NCBI GenBank assembly: GCA_031263815.1
Contig: JAISFD010000022.1
Span: 5,320 to 69,319, forward strand
Direction: 5' to 3'
Length of the DNA: 64,000 nt
Source of the DNA: Coxiellaceae bacterium
GTDB lineage: Bacteria > Pseudomonadota > Gammaproteobacteria > UBA9339
The notes below the pieces were generated by a model that did no database searches, was not told where the DNA came from, and saw nothing but the letters and a program-made list of their open reading frames with translations. Both the position numbers and the translations under genes were made by a program. Below, piece after piece: positions 8,825 to 39,735 of this stretch. How positions within the stretch are numbered: the stretch's first letter is position 1; every line of letters starts with the position of its first letter.

Positions 8825-9487
8825 ATGCAATTTACTGTAGTACAAATGATTTCGGTGTGGGTATTACCCATGATTTTTGCTATTACAGTCCATGAGGTAT
8901 CACATGGGTATGTTGCTTACTTACTTGGAGACAAAACCGCGCGGATTTTAGGCAGATTAACCCTAAATCCAATTAAACATATTGATGTTATTGGTACTAC
9001 TATTGTACCCCTTATATTACTATTGTTGGGTGGAGTTATTTTAGGGTGGGCTAAGCCAGTACCGATTAATTCGCATAACTTACGTAAGCCAAGGAGAGAT
9101 TTAGCATTAATTGCTGCTGCGGGCCCATTATCTAATTTTATGATGATGATTATTTGGGCTGGGTTTGCTAAGGTAGCAACGATTCTTCTAGCAAAAGATT
9201 TTCCAGGGGCACTAGCTATGTGTATGATGGGTGTTGCAGGGATTAGTATTAATCTGATGCTTATGGTTTTAAACTTATTACCTATTCCTCAACTTGATGG
9301 GGGACATGTTTTGTCGAGTTTATTGCCTAGATCTATCGCTAACCAATATGATCGCCTAGCTCCTTATGGTTTTTATATTTTGTTAATTTTGTTAGCATTG
9401 GGAGTTATAAATTTTGTCACGCAACCTATCATAAAATTTTTATATAGTTTGGTTATTCTAATATTTAATCTTTCCCTCCCGGTATAA
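8825..9487 (+). CDS. Site-2 (M50) family zinc metalloprotease, membrane
   Basis: HEVSH (HExxH) lies in the first TM region. The protein is polytopic and has LDGG near the C-terminal half. Confidence 0.75.
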   Translation: MQFTVVQMISVWVLPMIFAITVHEVSHGYVAYLLGDKTARILGRLTLNPIKHIDVIGTTIVPLILLLLGGVILGWAKPVPINSHNLRKPRRDLALIAAAGPLSNFMMMIIWAGFAKVATILLAKDFPGALAMCMMGVAGISINLMLMVLNLLPIPQLDGGHVLSSLLPRSIANQYDRLAPYGFYILLILLALGVINFVTQPIIKFLYSLVILIFNLSLPV

Positions 9488-9845
9488 CTTTGAATTGAAT
9501 TTTGTTCGCCTTGACCTCAGTTTCTTCTTTAGAAAAAGTCATGCCTCGACTATTTTCTGCAGCATAAATTGCCGTTACTGCTAATATGGGAATATATATG
9601 TTATGAGTGATCCCAGAAAAACGGGCTTTACAGGTTATAGTTTCATTATTTATAAGGAGTTCTTGAGTAGCTGTTGTTGAAATATTTAAAGTGATACTAT
9701 TGTTTTTGATATATTGTTTGGGCACAGTAACTGTGGGTATAGCAGTATCTACAGTAATGTAAGGGGTATTCCTATTGTCAGTGATCCACTCATAAATAGC
9801 TCTAATCAAATATGGTTTAATAAGTATTAACAATTGTTGTTTCAT
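9465..9845 (-). CDS. sspB: Stringent starvation protein B (ClpXP adaptor)
   Basis: The N-terminus PYLIRAIYEWITDNRNTPYITVD is typical of SspB. It lies directly downstream of sspA. Confidence 0.8.
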   Translation of the reverse strand: MKQQLLILIKPYLIRAIYEWITDNRNTPYITVDTAIPTVTVPKQYIKNNSITLNISTTATQELLINNETITCKARFSGITHNIYIPILAVTAIYAAENSRGMTFSKEETEVKANKIQFKVIPGGKD

Positions 9846-10463
9846 CTAATTTTTTAAATCTTTTTCCAAATCAGATAAACTTTCTTTAAACGAATCCCGA
9901 GCAAAAACGCGTTTCATATATTCTTGAAGTGGTTTAGTTTGTTGAGGTAATTCTATGTTTAAACTTTTTAAACGCCATAACATTGGTGCTAAGCAGCAAT
10001 CAGCTAAAGAGAAATCATCGCTTAGAAAATATGGAGCCTCATGGAATACTGGCGCAATAGTTATTAGTTGATCTCGCAGGTTTTTGCGGGCTTCGTCAGT
10101 TTCAGCTTTTTTAGCTTCTTGAATTGTAGTTACTAAAGTTAGACAGTCATGTTCTATACGATAAATCATTAAGCGGCATTTAGCGCGTGCTACTGGATAT
10201 ACTGGCAATAGAGGAGGGTGAGGGAAGCGTTCATCTAAATATTCAGTAATAATATTGGCCTCATAAAGCACCAAATCGCGGTCTACTAAAGTGGGTAGAG
10301 AGTGATATGGGTTTAAGGTGAGCAAATCTTCAGGAAGATTGTGGTTATCAACATAGATTATATTTACTGCAATCCCTTTTTCTGCCAATACTATTCGAGT
10401 GCGATGACTGGCAATGTTTAGAGGATCCGAATATAAGGTCATAGTTGAATGTTTGAGTATCAT
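9846..10463 (-). CDS. sspA: Stringent starvation protein A (GST-like)
   Basis: MTLYSDP...LNPYHSLPTLVDRDLVLYEANIITEYLDERFPHPPLLPVYPVARA closely parallels E. coli SspA. The true start may be the internal ATG at 10442. Confidence 0.9.
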   Translation of the reverse strand: MILKHSTMTLYSDPLNIASHRTRIVLAEKGIAVNIIYVDNHNLPEDLLTLNPYHSLPTLVDRDLVLYEANIITEYLDERFPHPPLLPVYPVARAKCRLMIYRIEHDCLTLVTTIQEAKKAETDEARKNLRDQLITIAPVFHEAPYFLSDDFSLADCCLAPMLWRLKSLNIELPQQTKPLQEYMKRVFARDSFKESLSDLEKDLKN

Positions 10464-30676: not shown

Positions 30677-31690
30677 ATGCACAAAGTCCTATCATTAATT
30701 TCTGGTGGTTTAGATTCTTTTCTTGCGACAAAACTAATTCTTATGCAAGGAGTATATGTTGAAGGAATCAACTTTTTTACTGGATTCAGTGGAGATCATG
30801 AGTATTGTTTTGACCATTCTACCAAAGGGAGCCATGGCGCGCGCTGGGTATGTGATCAATTAGGAATAAAATTGCATGTTGTAAATGTTGTAGATCTTTT
30901 TAAGCCTATATTACTGCAGCCAAAATATGGTTATGGTGCGAATCTTAATCCTTGTCTTGACTGTAAATTGTTTATGATTGGAGAAGCGAAAACCTGGATG
31001 GAAAAATGTGGATTTGATTTTTTGATTTCTGGTGAGGTTTTAGGTCAGCGGCCAAAATCTCAACGGAAAGATACTTTGCCTTTCGCATCTAAAATTACTT
31101 CGGATTTAATCGTGCGTCCTCTTTCAGCTAAACTTTTACCACCAACATTACCTGAAAGGGCAGGATGGATTAATAGAGAATTGCTTTATAGCATTAGTGG
31201 ACGAGGACGCAAATTTCAACTTAACCTTGCTCAAAAATTTGGGTTTAAAAAAATTCCTCAACCGAGTGGTGGCTGTCTCTTAACCGATTCAGGTTTTTGT
31301 CGGAGATTACAAGATCTGTGGGATCACCACTTAGATCACGATTATGACTTGAATGATATTTTACTACTGCGCTTGGGAAGACATTTGAGAGTTAACTCTA
31401 AGTTAAAAGTTGTTGTTGGTAGAGATGAAGGGGAAAATAACTTCCTTGAAAATTTTTCAAGTAAATATACTTTATTACAACCTATTAATTTTCCTGGCGC
31501 AACAGTTTTAGTTGATGGTAAAGTTGACCAGAGTAACTCGAATCTTTTGGCATGTCTTAGTGCCTATTTTAGTAAAGGACGAAATGCCAGTGAGGTTAAG
31601 GTATTGGTGCGCTATCCTCAAGACCTTGCTCAGAATGTTTTAGTTGTATCAGCAACACCGAATGAAGTTTTAAGCAAGTGGTATATATAG
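30677..31690 (+). CDS. PP-loop ATP pyrophosphatase superfamily protein (ThiI/MnmA-like, possible RNA thiolation enzyme)
   Basis: PP-loop SGGLDS at the N-terminus, NPCLDCK cysteine pair, and a ThiI-like SGEVLGQRPKSQ block. There is no THUMP or rhodanese domain. The exact function is not recognised. Confidence 0.55.
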   Translation: MHKVLSLISGGLDSFLATKLILMQGVYVEGINFFTGFSGDHEYCFDHSTKGSHGARWVCDQLGIKLHVVNVVDLFKPILLQPKYGYGANLNPCLDCKLFMIGEAKTWMEKCGFDFLISGEVLGQRPKSQRKDTLPFASKITSDLIVRPLSAKLLPPTLPERAGWINRELLYSISGRGRKFQLNLAQKFGFKKIPQPSGGCLLTDSGFCRRLQDLWDHHLDHDYDLNDILLLRLGRHLRVNSKLKVVVGRDEGENNFLENFSSKYTLLQPINFPGATVLVDGKVDQSNSNLLACLSAYFSKGRNASEVKVLVRYPQDLAQNVLVVSATPNEVLSKWYI

Positions 31691-31751
31691 ATTATTCTCA
31701 GAAAATATACTACATTATGATAAAATTTTTAATATATTTCGAAATTAATGA

Positions 31752-33392
<1,641 letters not shown>

Positions 33393-33408
33393 TGTAAAAG
33401 AAGCATAT

Positions 33409-34221
33409 ATGAAGCTATGTGGTTTCGAAATTGGTAATGACAAACCGCTTTTTTTAATTGCTGGACCATGTGTTATTGAAAGCGAGAAGATTGCACTTGA
33501 GTCGGCGTTTTTTTTGAAAGAAGTTACTGTCCGTTTAAAAGTAAATTTCATCTATAAAACTTCTTTTGAAAAAGCTAATCGTACATCGATGAATAGTTAC
33601 TCTGGACCAGGATTTACTGATGGCTTAAGAATTTTAAGAAAAATTAAGGAAGAGGTTAAAGTACCTATTTTAACCGATGTCCATGAATATACACCGTATG
33701 ATGAAGTAGTTGCAGTCGTTGATGTGTTACAAACTCCAGCATTTTTATGTCGTCAAACTAGTTTTATTAAAAAAGTTATGGGGCAAAATAAACCAGTTAA
33801 TATCAAAAAAGGACAATTTTTATCGCCATGGGAGATGAAAAACGTAGTAGAGAAAGCTAGTTCTACTGGTAATAAACAAATCATGGTTTGTGAACGTGGG
33901 GTAACATTTGGTTATAATAATTTAGTAGTCGATATGCGTTCGCTTGAAATCATGAAAGAAACTCACTGCCCTGTTATTTTCGATGCTGGACATTCGGTGC
34001 AGTTTCCAGGAAGTACTGGTTCCAGTAGCGGTGGAAAACGAGAATTTATTCCTGTTCTTGCGAGAGCAGCGACTGCCGTTGGAATTGCTGGACTATTTCT
34101 TGAAACTCATCCTAACCCTGAGCGGGCATTATGTGACGGTCCCAATATGTTACCAATTGCTAAGATAGAGTCTTTATTAATTACCCTCCAAAAAATTGAT
34201 CGTGCGGTTAAAACGCTTTAG
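33409..34221 (+). CDS. kdsA: 3-deoxy-8-phosphooctulonate (KDO8P) synthase
   Basis: [22 protein letters not shown], and DAGHSVQ motifs. Confidence 0.95.
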
Positions 34222-34299
34222 CTGAAAAAATACTTGCTATACGGTAGATTCTATTCTATTTTAACTATGATTAATAAGGGTTTTTTAACCGAAAATTAA

Positions 34300-35604
<1,305 letters not shown>

Positions 35605-35635
35605 GGAATTGAAAAATCTGTCCCAGATTAACTTT

Positions 35636-35905
35636 ATGAAAGTATTATTAGGTATACTAATAGTAGTGGTTATAGCATTACAGTATCGCCTTTGGTTTGC
35701 TGATGATGGCATCATTCATGCTTGGCGATTAAACAAGGCAATTTATGCTCAACAAGCAAAAAATGAAGATATAGTTAAACGTAATACTGTTTTAATTGAG
35801 GAAATTAAGTCACTAAAAGAAGGAGGAGATGCTATTGAAAACTGTGCTCGTAATGATCTTGGTATGGTAAAAAAAGGAGAGATTTTTTACCAAGTGGTAA
35901 AATGA
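35636..35905 (+). CDS. ftsB: Cell division protein FtsB
   Basis: MKVLLGILIVVVIALQYRLWF...ARNDLGMVKKGEIFYQVV parallels E. coli FtsB. Conserved position after eno. Confidence 0.85.
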   Translation: MKVLLGILIVVVIALQYRLWFADDGIIHAWRLNKAIYAQQAKNEDIVKRNTVLIEEIKSLKEGGDAIENCARNDLGMVKKGEIFYQVVK

Positions 35906-35911
35906 GTTTTT

Positions 35912-36943
35912 ATGCAAACACTACTTCCTACTAGAATAGTTGGTCCAATTAAAATTATCAGTAATGATTTTTCTGCTGATTCTAGAGTTCCACTTGCTAC
36001 TTTTGAGAAGCCTCTATGGTTTTCAGTAGAGCGTGGAGCTCGAGTAACAAGAAAATCTGGGGGTATAAGGACAGTGTTAGTGCAAGATTGTATGACACGA
36101 TCAATATTAGTCGAGGCTGAAAATGCTATTTATGCATTTGAAGTAGTCAATAGCTTAAAAGGGTTTCGATCTGAATTAGAAAAAATCGCTGTTAAAAGTA
36201 GTAGATTTACACAACTTAAAGATTGGCAAACTCAAATTGTAGCTAACCTGATTTATATTCGTTTTACTTTTACTACTGGTGGAGCTGCAGGTCATAATAT
36301 GTCAACAAAAGCAGCTGAGATGTTGCAACAGTGGCTATTAGATAAATTTCCTAAGTTGAAATATATCTCAATTTCTGGAAATTATTGTGTCGATAAAAAA
36401 AATTCAGCAGTAAATGGTATTTTGGGTAGAGGTAAATTTGTAATTGCTGAAGCTTTGATTCCTCGTGAACTTTGTCAGAAAGAATTGAAAGCTAGTCCAG
36501 AGAAAATCGTTGATTTAAATATTAAAAAGAATCTTCTTGGCTCAATTATTTCTGGTGGAGTAAGAACTGCTAATGCCCATTTTGCTAACATGCTTTTAGC
36601 ATTTTATTTAGCTATGGGCCAAGATGCAGCGAATATTGTTGAAGGATCCCAAGGATTTACTTATGCAGAAGTACGCAAAGATGATTTATATTTTTCAGTA
36701 ACTTTGCCCAATATCATTATTGGTGCAATAGGTAGCAATAAAGATCTAGATTGGGTAAAGGAAAATTTAAGAATATTGGGAGTTTTAAAGCCGAATGACT
36801 ATAATTTTAATGCGCGTGCCCTTGCGTTGATAGCGGCAGCAGTAGTTTTATGTGGAGAGATTTCTTTAATGGCTGCACAAACAAATCCTGGGGAACTTAT
36901 GCGAAGTCATTTAGCAATTGAAAGAAAAAACGTAATTAAGTAA
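35912..36943 (+). CDS. HMG-CoA reductase, class-I-like, short soluble form
   Basis: Blocks matching the class I catalytic core: PLATFEKPLWFS (Glu), SGNYCVDKKNSAVNGILGRGK (DKK Lys), GQDAANIVEGS (Asp), GELMRSHL (His), ANAHFAN. It lacks the N-domain and the membrane anchor. TTGGAAGHNM replaces the usual TGDAMGMNM. Confidence 0.75.
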   Translation: MQTLLPTRIVGPIKIISNDFSADSRVPLATFEKPLWFSVERGARVTRKSGGIRTVLVQDCMTRSILVEAENAIYAFEVVNSLKGFRSELEKIAVKSSRFTQLKDWQTQIVANLIYIRFTFTTGGAAGHNMSTKAAEMLQQWLLDKFPKLKYISISGNYCVDKKNSAVNGILGRGKFVIAEALIPRELCQKELKASPEKIVDLNIKKNLLGSIISGGVRTANAHFANMLLAFYLAMGQDAANIVEGSQGFTYAEVRKDDLYFSVTLPNIIIGAIGSNKDLDWVKENLRILGVLKPNDYNFNARALALIAAAVVLCGEISLMAAQTNPGELMRSHLAIERKNVIK

Positions 36944-36955
36944 TGGGGGATGAAT

Positions 36956-37519
36956 ATGACAAAAATTTTACTTGTGGCCGCATCTACACGGCAAGATTCA
37001 TCTAACAAAAAACTTATTAATCTTATCGCAAAATTAAGTACCCAACAAAAAATTGATGTTGAAGTTCTGGATTTTGCTAACTATAGGGCTCCACTTTATG
37101 ATGGAGATCTTGAAGATAAATTTGGTATACCTGAAGTGGTTCGAGCTTTTGTTGCAAAACTTCAAGATGCTTACGGTTTAATTTTATCTTCACCAGAATA
37201 TAATTTCTCTACTCCAGGAACTTTAAAAAGTCTTATCGATTGGATTTCACGTGTAAGACCTATGCCATGGGTAAGATATCCTATTATGCTATGTTCTGCC
37301 TCACCATCTTTGGTTGGTGGTAATAGAGGACTATTGCATACAGCAGTAATCTTGCAATGTTGCTGTAATGCCGATATTTTTCCTCCAATGTTTTCTTTGG
37401 CAAATAGCTATGAGGCGTTTACTAATGATGGTTCGTTAAAAGATAAGAATCTTGAACAAAAGTTAAGCAAAAACATTGTTGGGTTCGTAAATTTCGTAAA
37501 AAAACTAGCTCGCACATAA
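36956..37519 (+). CDS. NAD(P)H-dependent FMN reductase family protein
   Basis: Flavodoxin-like fold start MTKILLVAASTRQDSSNKKL and the SPEYNFSTPGTLKSLIDW block. Confidence 0.7.
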   Translation: MTKILLVAASTRQDSSNKKLINLIAKLSTQQKIDVEVLDFANYRAPLYDGDLEDKFGIPEVVRAFVAKLQDAYGLILSSPEYNFSTPGTLKSLIDWISRVRPMPWVRYPIMLCSASPSLVGGNRGLLHTAVILQCCCNADIFPPMFSLANSYEAFTNDGSLKDKNLEQKLSKNIVGFVNFVKKLART

Positions 37520-37529
37520 GTATTTCGTG

Positions 37530-37865
37530 CTATAGTGCAGATAAAGGATGTCCACCGAGTAAATGTAGATGTAAATGATACACTACTTGTCCACCATCAC
37601 GATTACAATTAATCAAAACTCGATAACCATTGGCATCAATTTTGAATTCTCTTGCTAATTTTTGCGTCACTAAAATCATATTACCAATTAGATCTCTATC
37701 TTCTGGTATTAAATCATTCATGGTAGCTATATGTTTATGTGGAATAATTAATTTATGTTGTGGTGCTCTGGGGTTAATATCATCAAAAGCGATTATTTTA
37801 TCATCTTGATAAATAATATTCGCTGGTATTATACCACTAGCAATTTTGCAGAAAATACAATCCAT
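37530..37865 (-). CDS. hinT: HIT-family nucleotide-binding protein (HinT-like)
   Basis: CIFCKI N-terminus and histidine triad HLHLHLLGG. Confidence 0.9.
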   Translation of the reverse strand: MDCIFCKIASGIIPANIIYQDDKIIAFDDINPRAPQHKLIIPHKHIATMNDLIPEDRDLIGNMILVTQKLAREFKIDANGYRVLINCNRDGGQVVYHLHLHLLGGHPLSAL

Positions 37866-37961
37866 ACTATCTAAATTGATTATTTAATATTAATACCTAC
37901 AATATGTTATATTGTAATTATATTATTCAATTATGTATACTAAAAAGTTGAAGATCATTCT

Positions 37962-37980
37962 TCATGGTTAATAACCATGA
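37962..37980. promoter_or_regulatory. Perfect 9-1-9 palindrome in the intergenic region upstream of the GltD-like/PFOR operon (candidate operator)
   Basis: TCATGGTTA-A-TAACCATGA at 37962-37980, ~160 nt upstream of ATG 38140. There is no other support. Confidence 0.3.
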
Positions 37981-38139
37981 CCATTAAAAGAGGAATTCTG
38001 GAAAAACTTTATTTCTGTAAACAGAGTGTTAAAAAATTGTATCCAAACGCGGTCAAGTTAGTAGCAATTAGTAGACTTCCTATTCAGATGCTTTTATAAT
38101 TTAATTTGTAGACGGATTATTCGATAGTTTATTGCAAAA

Positions 38140-39735
38140 ATGGAGTTTTTAGGCATGATTAATAAATCGCGAAAAGTTGCTGTTTGTGTCAAAAAAACAC
38201 CCCCCTGTAATAATATTTGCCCTGCAGGAGAAGATATTCAACATTGGCTAAATTTAGCTAAAGAACAAAAATATCATGAAGCATGGCAAGTTATTTTGCA
38301 AAGTAATCCTTTCCCAGCTATTCATGGTAGGGTTTGTTATCATTATTGTGAAACTAGGTGTAATCGAATACAACACGATTCAACTGTAGGAATTCATTGT
38401 ATTGAACGGTTTCTGGGAGATATGGCTCTAAGAGAGAAATGGGCCGCCCCAGCATTAAATACTAATACTAAAAAAGAGATTCTAATTGTAGGAGCTGGTC
38501 CAGCTGGTTTAACTGCAGCTTATTATTTACGTTTGTTTGGATACAATGTTACGATTTACGAGTCTCTACCTCAAGCCGGTGGTATGATGTTAATAGGTAT
38601 CCCAGCTTACCGTCTTCCACGTGAGATTCTATTTGGAGAGATTAATCGTGTTTTGAATACTGGAATAAAAATTGAATATAACCACAAAGTTCAGGATGTA
38701 ATTAAAGAAAAAGACGATCATGGTTTTGATGCGGTATTTTTAGCTATTGGTGCCCATTTGGGAAAAGATATCGCTATTCAAATAGAGGATCCATGCATAG
38801 TTATGGATGCTATTGACTATCTACGCGGAATTGCTCTAGGAAGATCAACTGCTCTTGGATCACGTTTAGTAGTCTATGGTGGTGGTAATACCGCAATAGA
38901 TGTGGCTCGAAGTGCTAAACGTTTGGGTGTATCTGACGTTAATATTGTTTACCATCGTACCCGTGAGAGAATGTCGGCTTTCAATCGTGAAATAGAAGCT
39001 GCTCTGGCTGAAGGCATTAAATTTACTTTTTTACGCAGTATTATAGCTCTCAACCACAATACTTTAACTTTAAGTATTAACGAGATTGATAACAAAGGGC
39101 GGCCCAAAAATACTGGGAAGATTGAAACACTAGAAATTGATGCTTTGATTTTTGCTTTAGGTCAAATTCCAGATTCTGAATTTTTGCGTAAAATTCCTGA
39201 AGTTGGATTACAGCCGGCTGGAGTAATAACTATAGATGATTTATTTATAACTGGATATCGTGGTATTTTTGCTGGTGGTGATATGATTCCATTTGATCGA
39301 AGTATTACTGCAGCTGTAGGTCACGGTAGACGTGCGGCTTATTGTATTGATTCATATTTGGGTCATACTCATACTTCTTTTGGTGAATTGCCTTTTAGTA
39401 AAGAGTTGGCGTCTTTCGACAAATTACATATTAGTGATGAAAAGTCGCAAAAAACTATGGAAAAAATGCTGCAAGCGGGGACACGAGTCAAATCTTTTTC
39501 CGAAGTTATTCCGAGTTGTACTCAAAATGAAGTTTTATATGAATCAAAGCGTTGTTTTTCATGTGGCAATTGTTTTGGTTGTGGTAAGTGTTATGCAGTT
39601 TGTCCTGTAACAGCGATAACACATTCAAAGCTAGATGGTAAAGTTACTGAAATTAATCCGGCAAAATGTATTGATTGTAGTCAATGTTTTAAAATTTGTC
39701 CATGTGGTGCTATCAATATGATAGATAGAAAATAA
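38140..39735 (+). CDS. GltD-like NAD(P)H-dependent Fe-S flavoprotein oxidoreductase with a C-terminal 2x[4Fe-4S] ferredoxin domain
   Basis: N-terminal Cys cluster (CNNICPAG...CYHYCETRCNR). Two dinucleotide folds (IVGAGPAGLTAAYYL; VVYGGGNTAIDVARSA). C-terminal CFSCGNCFGCGKCYAVCP and CIDCSQCFKICPCGA. Confidence 0.8.
   Translation: MEFLGMINKSRKVAVCVKKTPPCNNICPAGEDIQHWLNLAKEQKYHEAWQVILQSNPFPAIHGRVCYHYCETRCNRIQHDSTVGIHCIERFLGDMALREKWAAPALNTNTKKEILIVGAGPAGLTAAYYLRLFGYNVTIYESLPQAGGMMLIGIPAYRLPREILFGEINRVLNTGIKIEYNHKVQDVIKEKDDHGFDAVFLAIGAHLGKDIAIQIEDPCIVMDAIDYLRGIALGRSTALGSRLVVYGGGNTAIDVARSAKRLGVSDVNIVYHRTRERMSAFNREIEAALAEGIKFTFLRSIIALNHNTLTLSINEIDNKGRPKNTGKIETLEIDALIFALGQIPDSEFLRKIPEVGLQPAGVITIDDLFITGYRGIFAGGDMIPFDRSITAAVGHGRRAAYCIDSYLGHTHTSFGELPFSKELASFDKLHISDEKSQKTMEKMLQAGTRVKSFSEVIPSCTQNEVLYESKRCFSCGNCFGCGKCYAVCPVTAITHSKLDGKVTEINPAKCIDCSQCFKICPCGAINMIDRK

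What the first reader, a model, noticed from the sequence alone, without database searches (positions are those of the whole stretch)
35912..36943. A short, anchor-less class-I-like HMG-CoA reductase sits exactly where ispD is expected
The 343-aa product carries the class I catalytic blocks: Glu in TFEKPLWFS, Lys in CVDKKNSA, Asp in GQDAANIVEGS and His in GELMRSHL. It starts directly at the L-domain, with no N-domain and no membrane anchor. It also has TTGGAAGHNM where class I enzymes usually have TGDAMGMNM. It begins 6 nt after ftsB, the position normally taken by ispD in gammaproteobacteria. This looks like an in-situ swap of a MEP gene for a mevalonate-pathway gene. The truncated architecture and the altered conserved block raise the question of whether it is a bona fide HMGR or a diverged paralog with another acyl-CoA substrate.
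Basis: partly seen in the sequence, partly recalled or inferred. Interest (0 to 1): 0.6.

Follow-up and report, generated by a model that had tools for sequence, protein, structure and literature searches.

The report
Short bacterial HMG-CoA reductase after ftsB
This gene is a normal working copy of a short bacterial HMG-CoA reductase in a small host-dependent bacterium that makes isoprenoid precursors by the mevalonate route only; it sits where most relatives keep ispD, but enzyme type and pathway are already known.

Summary
A 343-aa ORF (35912-36943, +) starts 6 nt after ftsB. It carries the four class-I catalytic residues, lacks the N-domain and the ENVIG motif, and reads TTGGAAGHNM.

The worry that it is a diverged paralog is not supported. 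Shortness and "GHNM" are shared by a large bacterial class-I family (more than 5,700 homologs, at least 596 species). That family includes the 353-aa HMGR in a Streptomyces cluster with the gene order of the CL190 cluster, whose HMGR was purified and assayed (55% identical). In most relatives the gene heads an HMGR-mvaS-MK-PMK-MDD operon. The three residues that separate HMGR from the fatty-acyl-CoA reductase FcrA are HMGR-type.

The 0.97-Mb genome (96.7% complete) has mvaS, two kinases and an MDD-IDI fusion on another contig. No MEP enzyme was found.

The "in-place swap" idea is partly supported:
- eno-ftsB-ispD is the arrangement in 25 of 30 sampled gammaproteobacterial families.
- In this order, 20 of 22 genomes have this HMGR, at least 14 of them directly after ftsB, and several have the whole operon there.

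The Asp-to-Gly change sits at a variable position.

This is a new member of a known kind, of low interest. Earlier notes of this scan describe the same arrangement in other genomes.

The parts
35912..36943 (+). hmgR: 343-aa short bacterial class-I HMG-CoA reductase
   Evidence: PF00368 267 bits. PDB class-I hits at E about 1e-59. AF2 model matches human and archaeal HMGR. 55% identical to the Streptomyces cluster HMGR.
36005..36007 (+). Codon for catalytic Glu32 (human E559)
   Evidence: Invariant in 120 of 120 homologs; aligned.
36272..36301 (+). Cofactor-loop block TTGGAAGHNM (residues 121-130). G124 corresponds to human D653 and H128 to human M657.
   Evidence: A125, G127, H128 and N129 are invariant. 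Position 124 reads D77/G25/E10/N4/A3/K1 among 120 homologs. Gly is found in genera g1, g5 and one g2 genome.
36374..36400 (+). SGNYCVDKK block: S155 (human S684), D161, catalytic K162 (human K691), K163
   Evidence: S155 is HMGR-type, not the acidic FcrA-type residue.
36527..36529 (+). Codon for K206 (human K735), the salt-bridge partner of the HMG carboxylate
   Evidence: Invariant in 120 of 120. Replaced by T, S or C in the Vibrio, Alteromonas and Sinorhizobium paralogs.
36623..36625 (+). Codon for catalytic Asp238 (human D767)
   Evidence: Invariant.
36896..36910 (+). C-terminal flap helix residues L329-H333 (human L862 to H866)
   Evidence: L329 and H333 are invariant. FcrA-like proteins have W or F at the L862 position (PMC11948995).
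35609..35905 (+). ftsB, immediately upstream, in the same reading frame, 6-nt gap
   Evidence: PF04977 DivIC 70 bits; sequence.
34309..35604 (+). eno, part of the conserved pyrG-kdsA-eno-ftsB block that precedes the slot
   Evidence: ORF list. Eno-FtsB synteny in the order and in the class.
36950..37519 (+). NADPH-dependent FMN reductase-family gene, 6 nt downstream. It is a neighbour; a functional link is not shown.
   Evidence: PF03358 110 bits. Found downstream of HMGR in some same-genus loci only.

Best explanation
The ORF encodes the organism's only HMG-CoA reductase. It is a soluble, about 340-aa bacterial class-I enzyme that reduces (S)-HMG-CoA to mevalonate with two NADPH. It uses the Glu32/Lys162/Asp238/His333 tetrad and feeds the mvaS-MK-PMK-MDD/IDI genes on another contig.

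The MEP pathway is absent, so this gene is needed for undecaprenyl phosphate and other isoprenoids. It is probably co-transcribed with eno-ftsB.

Its position is historical. In the ancestor of this order the mevalonate operon lay directly after ftsB, where gammaproteobacteria normally have ispD. In this lineage the rest of the operon moved away and hmgR stayed.

Shown here: family membership, residues, fold, pathway content and synteny. Inferred: enzyme activity, cofactor, co-transcription and the order of events.
For: Family and residues:
- PF00368 scores 267 bits. Class-I structures are the best PDB matches at E about 1e-59. The AF2 model (pLDDT 77.7) matches human and archaeal HMGR at Foldseek E about 1e-31, TMq 0.65-0.69.
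- All catalytic and HMG-binding residues are invariant across 120 homologs and identical to the A. thaliana and M. thermolithotrophicus enzymes.
- The protein is 55% identical to the 353-aa HMGR in a Streptomyces mvk-mvaD-pmk-fni-hmgr-hmgs-KASIII cluster. This is the gene order of the CL190 cluster, whose HMGR was purified and converts HMG-CoA to mevalonate with NADPH (PMC5509993).
- In a tree, the short family including Streptomyces forms a clade with 100/99 support.

Context in relatives:
- In most of 80 related loci the gene heads an HMGR-MvaS-MK-PMK-MDD operon.

Own genome:
- Present: MvaS (439 bits, above cut-off), two mevalonate-kinase-like GHMP kinases, and an MDD-IDI1 fusion.
- Not found: DXS, DXR, IspD, IspE, IspF, IspG, IspH. 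The genome is 96.7% complete.

Order and class:
- The ortholog is present in 20 of 22 genomes of the order, and in 15 of 15 high-quality ones. A true IspD is present in none.
- eno-ftsB-HMGR occurs in at least 14 genomes. The full operon follows ftsB in G012, and mvaS follows HMGR there in G004, G008 and G011.
- eno-ftsB-ispD occurs in 25 of 30 class-level IspD loci.
Against: - No assay exists for this protein or any close relative.
- It scores below the TIGR00533 equivalog cut-off (277 against 441.8). The Streptomyces homolog does as well (290).
- The ENVIG dimerisation motif and the N-domain are missing.
- The Asp of the DAMGxN cofactor motif is Gly.
- No acetoacetyl-CoA thiolase was found in this genome or in 20 of 22 genomes of the order, so the first pathway step is unaccounted for.
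- The direction of the rearrangement (operon split rather than operon assembly at ftsB) rests on parsimony without a species tree.
Confidence: 0.88

Rival explanations
1. It is an HMGR-derived reductase for another acyl-CoA, such as an FcrA-type fatty-acyl-CoA reductase, and not an HMG-CoA reductase.
For: - A clade derived from class-I HMGR reduces fatty acyl-CoA, not HMG-CoA, while keeping all four catalytic residues. That paper reports that a majority of the bacterial 'class-I HMGR' annotations in its datasets are FcrA (PMC11948995).
- The query fails the TIGR00533 cut-off.
Against: - The three discriminating pocket residues are HMGR-type: S155, K206 and L329, against Glu, a small residue and Trp in FcrA. 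They are invariant in the family.
- There is no N-terminal lipid-carrier domain.
- Relatives sit in mevalonate operons.
- The genome needs an HMGR and has no other PF00368 gene.
- In the tree the query is separate from the Vibrio, Alteromonas and Sinorhizobium clade, which carries the FcrA-like substitutions.
Confidence: 0.03
2. It is a true HMGR, but the Gly124 lineage (with the family-wide Ala126 and His128) has changed cofactor preference or kinetics, for example to dual NADH/NADPH use.
For: - The substitution lies in the DAMGxN cofactor motif.
- Gly is fixed in all six genomes of the genus and in the two g5 genomes.
- The anaerobe-like redox genes nearby (PFOR, FMN reductase) hint at an unusual redox economy.
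Against: - The position varies freely in the family: D, G, E, N, A and K.
- D805A at the same motif position in Candida glabrata HMGR keeps about 52% of activity (PMC8531335).
- The Ser97-Arg98 pair aligns with human S626-R627. From memory of the human structure paper, these contact the NADPH 2'-phosphate. The pair is retained.
Confidence: 0.07
3. It is a decaying or inactive remnant left behind when the operon moved.
For: It is separated from the other pathway genes.
Against: - The frame is intact.
- Orthologs across the order are 57-82% identical, with every functional residue invariant.
- It is the only HMGR in a genome without MEP.
Confidence: 0.02

Closest known systems
Streptomyces sp. 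CL190 HMG-CoA reductase (NphT5) and its homologs in Streptomyces mevalonate clusters
   Same: - Same short architecture: 353 against 343 aa, about 9 residues before the first conserved strand, no ENVIG motif and no N-domain.
- Same GDA[AS]GHNM variant of the cofactor block.
- 55% identity over 98% of the length.
- Same clade (100/99 support).
- Same sub-threshold TIGR00533 score.
- The CL190 enzyme was purified and is NADPH-dependent and mevalonate-forming (PMC5509993).
   Different: - In Streptomyces the cluster serves secondary-metabolite terpenoids alongside a MEP pathway, and has IDI type 2 and NphT7. Here the pathway is the only isoprenoid route, has IDI type 1 fused to MDD, and has no recognisable acetoacetyl-CoA-forming enzyme.
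- Streptomyces has Asp at the position that is Gly124 here.
- I compared a plasmid homolog, not the CL190 sequence itself.
Mevalonate pathway of Legionellales and Coxiellaceae (Coxiella burnetii, Legionella pneumophila, 'Ca. Centrionella')
   Same: Intracellular gammaproteobacteria that use MVA and not MEP (PMC9803151, PMC9997736, bioRxiv 10.64898/2026.04.11.717937). The nearest named records for this protein are Coxiellaceae and Legionellales MAGs.
   Different: The L. pneumophila HMGR studied in PMC13370337 was placed in that preprint's tree of bacterial HMGR homologs with the class-II enzymes, so it is a different enzyme type. The position after ftsB is not mentioned in the passages of these papers that I searched.
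Archaeal and eukaryotic class-I HMGR (human 1DQA, A. thaliana 7ULI/8ECG, M. thermolithotrophicus 6HR7)
   Same: Fold, the Glu/Lys/Asp/His tetrad, the HMG-binding residues and the C-terminal flap helix.
   Different: 37-38% identity. The query lacks the N-domain and the ENVIG strand, and has GHNM instead of GMNM. A long stem branch separates the bacterial short clade. No solved structure of the short type appeared in the PDB searches.
FcrA fatty-acyl-CoA reductase (HMGR-derived; PMC11948995)
   Same: PF00368 core with the conserved catalytic tetrad; bacterial.
   Different: FcrA has Glu, a small residue and Trp at human positions S684, K735 and L862. It often has an N-terminal Lad domain and occurs in genomes without MVA genes. 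None of these applies here.

Membership tests
Class-I HMG-CoA reductase (EC 1.1.1.34; PF00368) | Pfam HMG-CoA_red domain above the gathering score | tested here: met
   267 bits against a cut-off of 27; profile positions 43-367 of 368.
Class-I HMG-CoA reductase (EC 1.1.1.34; PF00368) | Catalytic Glu, Lys, Asp and His (human E559, K691, D767, H866) | tested here: met
   E32, K162, D238 and H333; invariant in 120 homologs.
Class-I HMG-CoA reductase (EC 1.1.1.34; PF00368) | HMG-binding pocket residues (human R590, S684, K692, K735, H752, N755, L862) | tested here: met
   R63, S155, K163, K206, H223, N226 and L329, all identical to the plant and archaeal enzymes.
Class-I HMG-CoA reductase (EC 1.1.1.34; PF00368) | DAMGxN cofactor motif | tested here: inconclusive
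   The query reads GAAGHN. The Gly and Asn of the motif are kept, Asp is replaced by Gly, and the two Met by Ala and His. The family consensus is DA[AS]GHN. Streptomyces has DASGHN.
Class-I HMG-CoA reductase (EC 1.1.1.34; PF00368) | ENVIG dimerisation motif and N-domain | tested here: not met
   The protein starts 5 residues before the conserved Pro. The family median is 9 residues. The motif is likewise absent from the Streptomyces homolog.
Class-I HMG-CoA reductase (EC 1.1.1.34; PF00368) | NCBIfam TIGR00533 equivalog cut-off | tested here: not met
   277 bits against 441.8. The Streptomyces cluster HMGR scores 290 and the G012 operon ortholog 295, also below.
Class-I HMG-CoA reductase (EC 1.1.1.34; PF00368) | Class-I fold | tested here: met
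   Foldseek top 50 hits are all class-I HMGR, E about 1e-29 to 1e-31, TMq 0.65-0.69. The model is of moderate confidence (pLDDT 77.7).
Class-I HMG-CoA reductase (EC 1.1.1.34; PF00368) | Association with the other mevalonate-pathway genes | tested here: met
   The operon is present in the same genome. The orthologs head MVA operons.
Class-I HMG-CoA reductase (EC 1.1.1.34; PF00368) | HMG-CoA to mevalonate activity with NADPH | not testable with these tools
   Needs an enzyme assay.
FcrA fatty-acyl-CoA reductase | Bulky residue at human L862, acidic residue at S684, small residue at K735 | tested here: not met
   The query has L329, S155 and K206. The criteria come from PMC11948995. That paper prints 'Lys795'; its own residue numbers point to Lys735.
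FcrA fatty-acyl-CoA reductase | Occurs in genomes without a mevalonate pathway | tested here: not met
   The mevalonate genes are present.
Class-II HMG-CoA reductase (TIGR00532) | Match to the class-II model | tested here: not met
   No TIGR00532 hit at E <= 0.01.
IspD (the gene expected at this position) | PF01128 / TIGR00453 domain | tested here: not met
   The only PF01128 hit in the genome is GlmU.

The most novel reading that the evidence does not exclude
In the ancestor of this small-genome order, the mevalonate operon was inserted exactly into the ispD(-ispF) slot behind eno-ftsB and displaced the MEP genes in place. hmgR later stayed under eno-ftsB transcription when the rest of the operon moved.

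In addition, the short bacterial class-I HMGRs, which lack the ENVIG strand and the N-domain and have no solved structure, may assemble differently from the human and archaeal tetramers.
Probability: 0.45. Interest if true: 0.4.

Novelty: new member of a known kind. Interest (0 to 1): 0.2.

Why it matters
- For annotation: about-340-aa class-I HMGRs that fail the TIGR00533 cut-off and lack ENVIG should still be called HMGR when S684, K735 and L862 are conserved and mevalonate genes are present. This separates them from FcrA-like proteins.
- For evolution: the order shows both stages of a pathway replacement at one chromosomal slot. In some genomes the whole operon follows ftsB; in others only hmgR remains there.
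- For biochemistry: no structure of the short type exists, and one recent paper states that no bacterial class-I HMGR has been characterised.
- None of this is surprising to a specialist in isoprenoid pathways.

Tried and rejected
- Promoter and terminator scan of 31600-38200: no more sites than in shuffled sequence, so it is uninformative about co-transcription.
- ftsB and hmgR share a reading frame, separated by TGA GTT TTT. I considered a read-through fusion and rejected it, because the spacing differs in relatives, from about 10 to 190 nt.
- The weak IspD, DXS and thiolase hits in the genome turned out to be GlmU, transketolase and FabH.
- The single IspD hit in the order is an IspD-SDR fusion, which by my inference is of the ribitol-phosphate type and not a MEP enzyme.
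- The primary Streptomyces papers (PMC93504, PMC101890) are not held. I used the author's review instead.
- One literature search on the N-domain returned nothing relevant.
- I did not obtain authentic FcrA sequences. Plasmid-borne Vibrio, Alteromonas and Sinorhizobium homologs served as FcrA-like comparators, chosen by their residues only.

Full report
**1. Observation**

The ORF 35912-36943 (+) encodes 343 aa. ftsB (35609-35905; PF04977) ends in TGA at 35903-35905, and six bases later hmgR starts. The next gene, an FMN-reductase-family protein, also follows after 6 nt. Upstream lie pyrG, kdsA and eno.

Pfam gives HMG-CoA_red at 267 bits over profile positions 43-367 of 368. NCBIfam TIGR00533 gives 277 bits over positions 72-402 of 402, below its cut-off of 441.8. 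The best solved-structure relatives are class-I enzymes from A. thaliana, M. thermolithotrophicus and human, at E about 1e-59. Query residues 5-339 align to human chain positions 115-451.

So the N-domain, the ENVIG strand and any membrane anchor are absent.

**2. The short form is a family property**

A search of the large protein collection returned 5,763 homologs, and the best 120 are 332-403 aa long. Among those 120 the median number of residues before the first conserved Pro is 9.

The following residues are invariant in all 120: E32, R63, D161, K162, K163, K205, K206, H223, N226, D238, L329 and H333, and also A125, G127, H128 and N129 of the cofactor block. "GHNM" in place of "GMNM" is therefore family-wide.

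Only the residue at the human D653 position varies: D 77, G 25, E 10, N 4, A 3, K 1. Gly occurs in all six genomes of the window's genus, in genus g5 and in one g2 genome. In Candida glabrata HMGR, D805A at this motif position keeps about 52% of activity (PMC8531335).

**3. It is the mevalonate-pathway reductase**

At least 596 species genomes encode relatives. They include Coxiellaceae, Legionellales and Francisellaceae MAGs, Oceanospirillales such as Marinobacterium and Motiliproteus, Verrucomicrobiota and Myxococcales. In most of the 80 fetched loci the gene heads an HMGR-MvaS-MK-PMK-MDD operon, often with a divergent idi gene.

Streptomyces plasmids carry 54-55% identical genes. One of them is a 353-aa CDS inside an mvk-mvaD-pmk-fni-hmgr-hmgs-KASIII cluster. 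This is the gene order of the CL190 NphT1-7 cluster. The CL190 HMGR was purified and forms mevalonate from HMG-CoA with NADPH (PMC5509993).

That Streptomyces protein also starts about 9 residues before the conserved strand, reads GDASGHNM, and scores 290 bits on TIGR00533, also below the cut-off.

**4. The "other acyl-CoA" alternative**

A known HMGR-derived family, FcrA, reduces fatty acyl-CoA and not HMG-CoA, while keeping the catalytic tetrad. It differs at human S684, K735 and L862, where it has Glu, a small residue and Trp (PMC11948995). The paper prints "Lys795", but its own numbering implies Lys735.

The query has S155, K206 and L329, as do the plant and archaeal enzymes and the whole short family. 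In contrast, plasmid "HMGR" genes of Vibrio, Alteromonas and Sinorhizobium lie outside mevalonate contexts. They carry D/A/T, T/S/C and F/W/F at these three positions and keep an ENxxG N-terminus.

A maximum-likelihood tree puts the short family, including Streptomyces, in a clade with 100/99 support. That clade is separate from the plant and archaeal pair and from the Vibrio-type clade.

An AlphaFold2 model (pLDDT 77.7) matches only class-I HMGR structures at the top of the Foldseek list, with E about 1e-31 and TMq 0.65-0.69.

**5. Pathway content of the genome**

The assembly is 0.97 Mb in 66 contigs and 96.7% complete. It has one PF00368 gene.

Contig C11 carries the following genes:
- mvaS (TIGR01835, 439 bits, above cut-off);
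- two adjacent mevalonate-kinase-like GHMP kinases;
- a small LigD-phosphoesterase-domain ORF;
- an MDD (TIGR01240, 259 bits, above cut-off) fused to a Nudix-type IDI.

No IspH, DXR, IspG or IspF was found. The only GHMP kinases are the three in the operon, so there is no IspE. The weak IspD and DXS hits are GlmU and transketolase.

One gap remains. No thiolase was found: the PF00108 hits are FabH, a FabF/B-like ORF and a giant ORF. TIGR01930 is missing in 20 of 22 genomes of the order.

**6. The position**

In a sample of 30 IspD loci from 30 gammaproteobacterial families, FtsB lies directly upstream of IspD in 25 and Eno precedes it in 23. SurE follows shortly after in five.

The window's GTDB order holds 22 small genomes (0.4-2.0 Mb). 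Within it:
- The HMGR ortholog is found in 20 of 22 genomes, and in 15 of 15 high-quality ones.
- IspD is found in 1 of 22, and that one is an IspD-SDR fusion, not a MEP enzyme.
- eno-ftsB-hmgR is seen in at least 14 of the 20 loci.
- In G012 the full operon eno-ftsB-hmgR-mvaS-MK-PMK-MDD/IDI is contiguous. mvaS also follows hmgR after ftsB in G004, G008 and G011.

The members with the full operon at this site are the more distant ones (57-63% identity). The closer genera have hmgR alone. The simplest reading is an ancestral operon in the ispD slot that was later split. This ordering is an inference, because no rooted species tree was made.

**7. Comparison with what is known**

MVA-only isoprenoid synthesis is established for C. 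burnetii and L. pneumophila (PMC9803151, PMC9997736). It is also reported for a reduced anaerobic Legionellales-like symbiont order (bioRxiv 10.64898/2026.04.11.717937). Short class-I HMGR is known from Streptomyces.

The present gene is therefore a new member of a known kind. Earlier notes of this scan describe the same arrangement in other genomes. I reached the same reading from my own tests.

**8. Verdict**

This is a bona fide HMGR (confidence about 0.88). Interest is low.

Noticed in passing
Whole genome G000; order-level search: No acetoacetyl-CoA thiolase was found in this genome. TIGR01930 is missing in 20 of 22 genomes of the order, although mvaS is present. The source of acetoacetyl-CoA for the mevalonate pathway is unexplained.
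   Followed up: partly
L006:6060-7613 (-) = G000 contig C11; also L117:8505-10034: Diphosphomevalonate decarboxylase is fused to a Nudix-type (type 1) IPP isomerase in one 517-aa protein. The fusion also appears in the distant order member G012.
   Followed up: partly
L006:8047-9042 and 8987-10012 (-): There are two adjacent mevalonate-kinase-like GHMP kinases, and neither reaches an NCBIfam cut-off. One must serve as phosphomevalonate kinase. This may explain why a recent survey scored Legionella as lacking PmvK (PMC13001223).
   Followed up: no
L006:7589-8050 (-): A stand-alone LigD 3'-phosphoesterase-domain ORF of 153 aa (TIGR02777, 217 bits) is wedged between the kinase and MDD-IDI genes of the mevalonate operon.
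   Followed up: no
window 35903-35914: ftsB and hmgR are in the same reading frame, separated only by TGA GTT TTT. The spacing is not conserved in relatives.
   Followed up: yes
G000 contig C19:1-2405 (L090): An open frame of at least 3,119 aa with a weak thiolase/ketosynthase-like match sits in a 0.97-Mb genome. It could be a giant PKS-like or other multidomain protein.
   Followed up: no
L116:1246-2499 (+), genome G011: One order member has a second, 417-aa HMGR paralog of the Vibrio type. It has an ENYIG N-terminus, DASGQNM, Phe at the human L862 position and 32% identity to the query. It groups with the Vibrio protein at 100/99 support, and its function may differ.
   Followed up: partly
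window 30677-31690 (+): A PP-loop ATPase (ThiI/MnmA-like N-terminus) carries a C-terminal NFACT-R_2 RNA-binding domain (PF18297, 82 bits).
   Followed up: no
PMC11948995, structural comparison section: The paper prints 'Lys795' of human HMGR. Its own N. pharaonis numbering (G411 against K367 = K691) shows that Lys735 is meant.
   Followed up: yes
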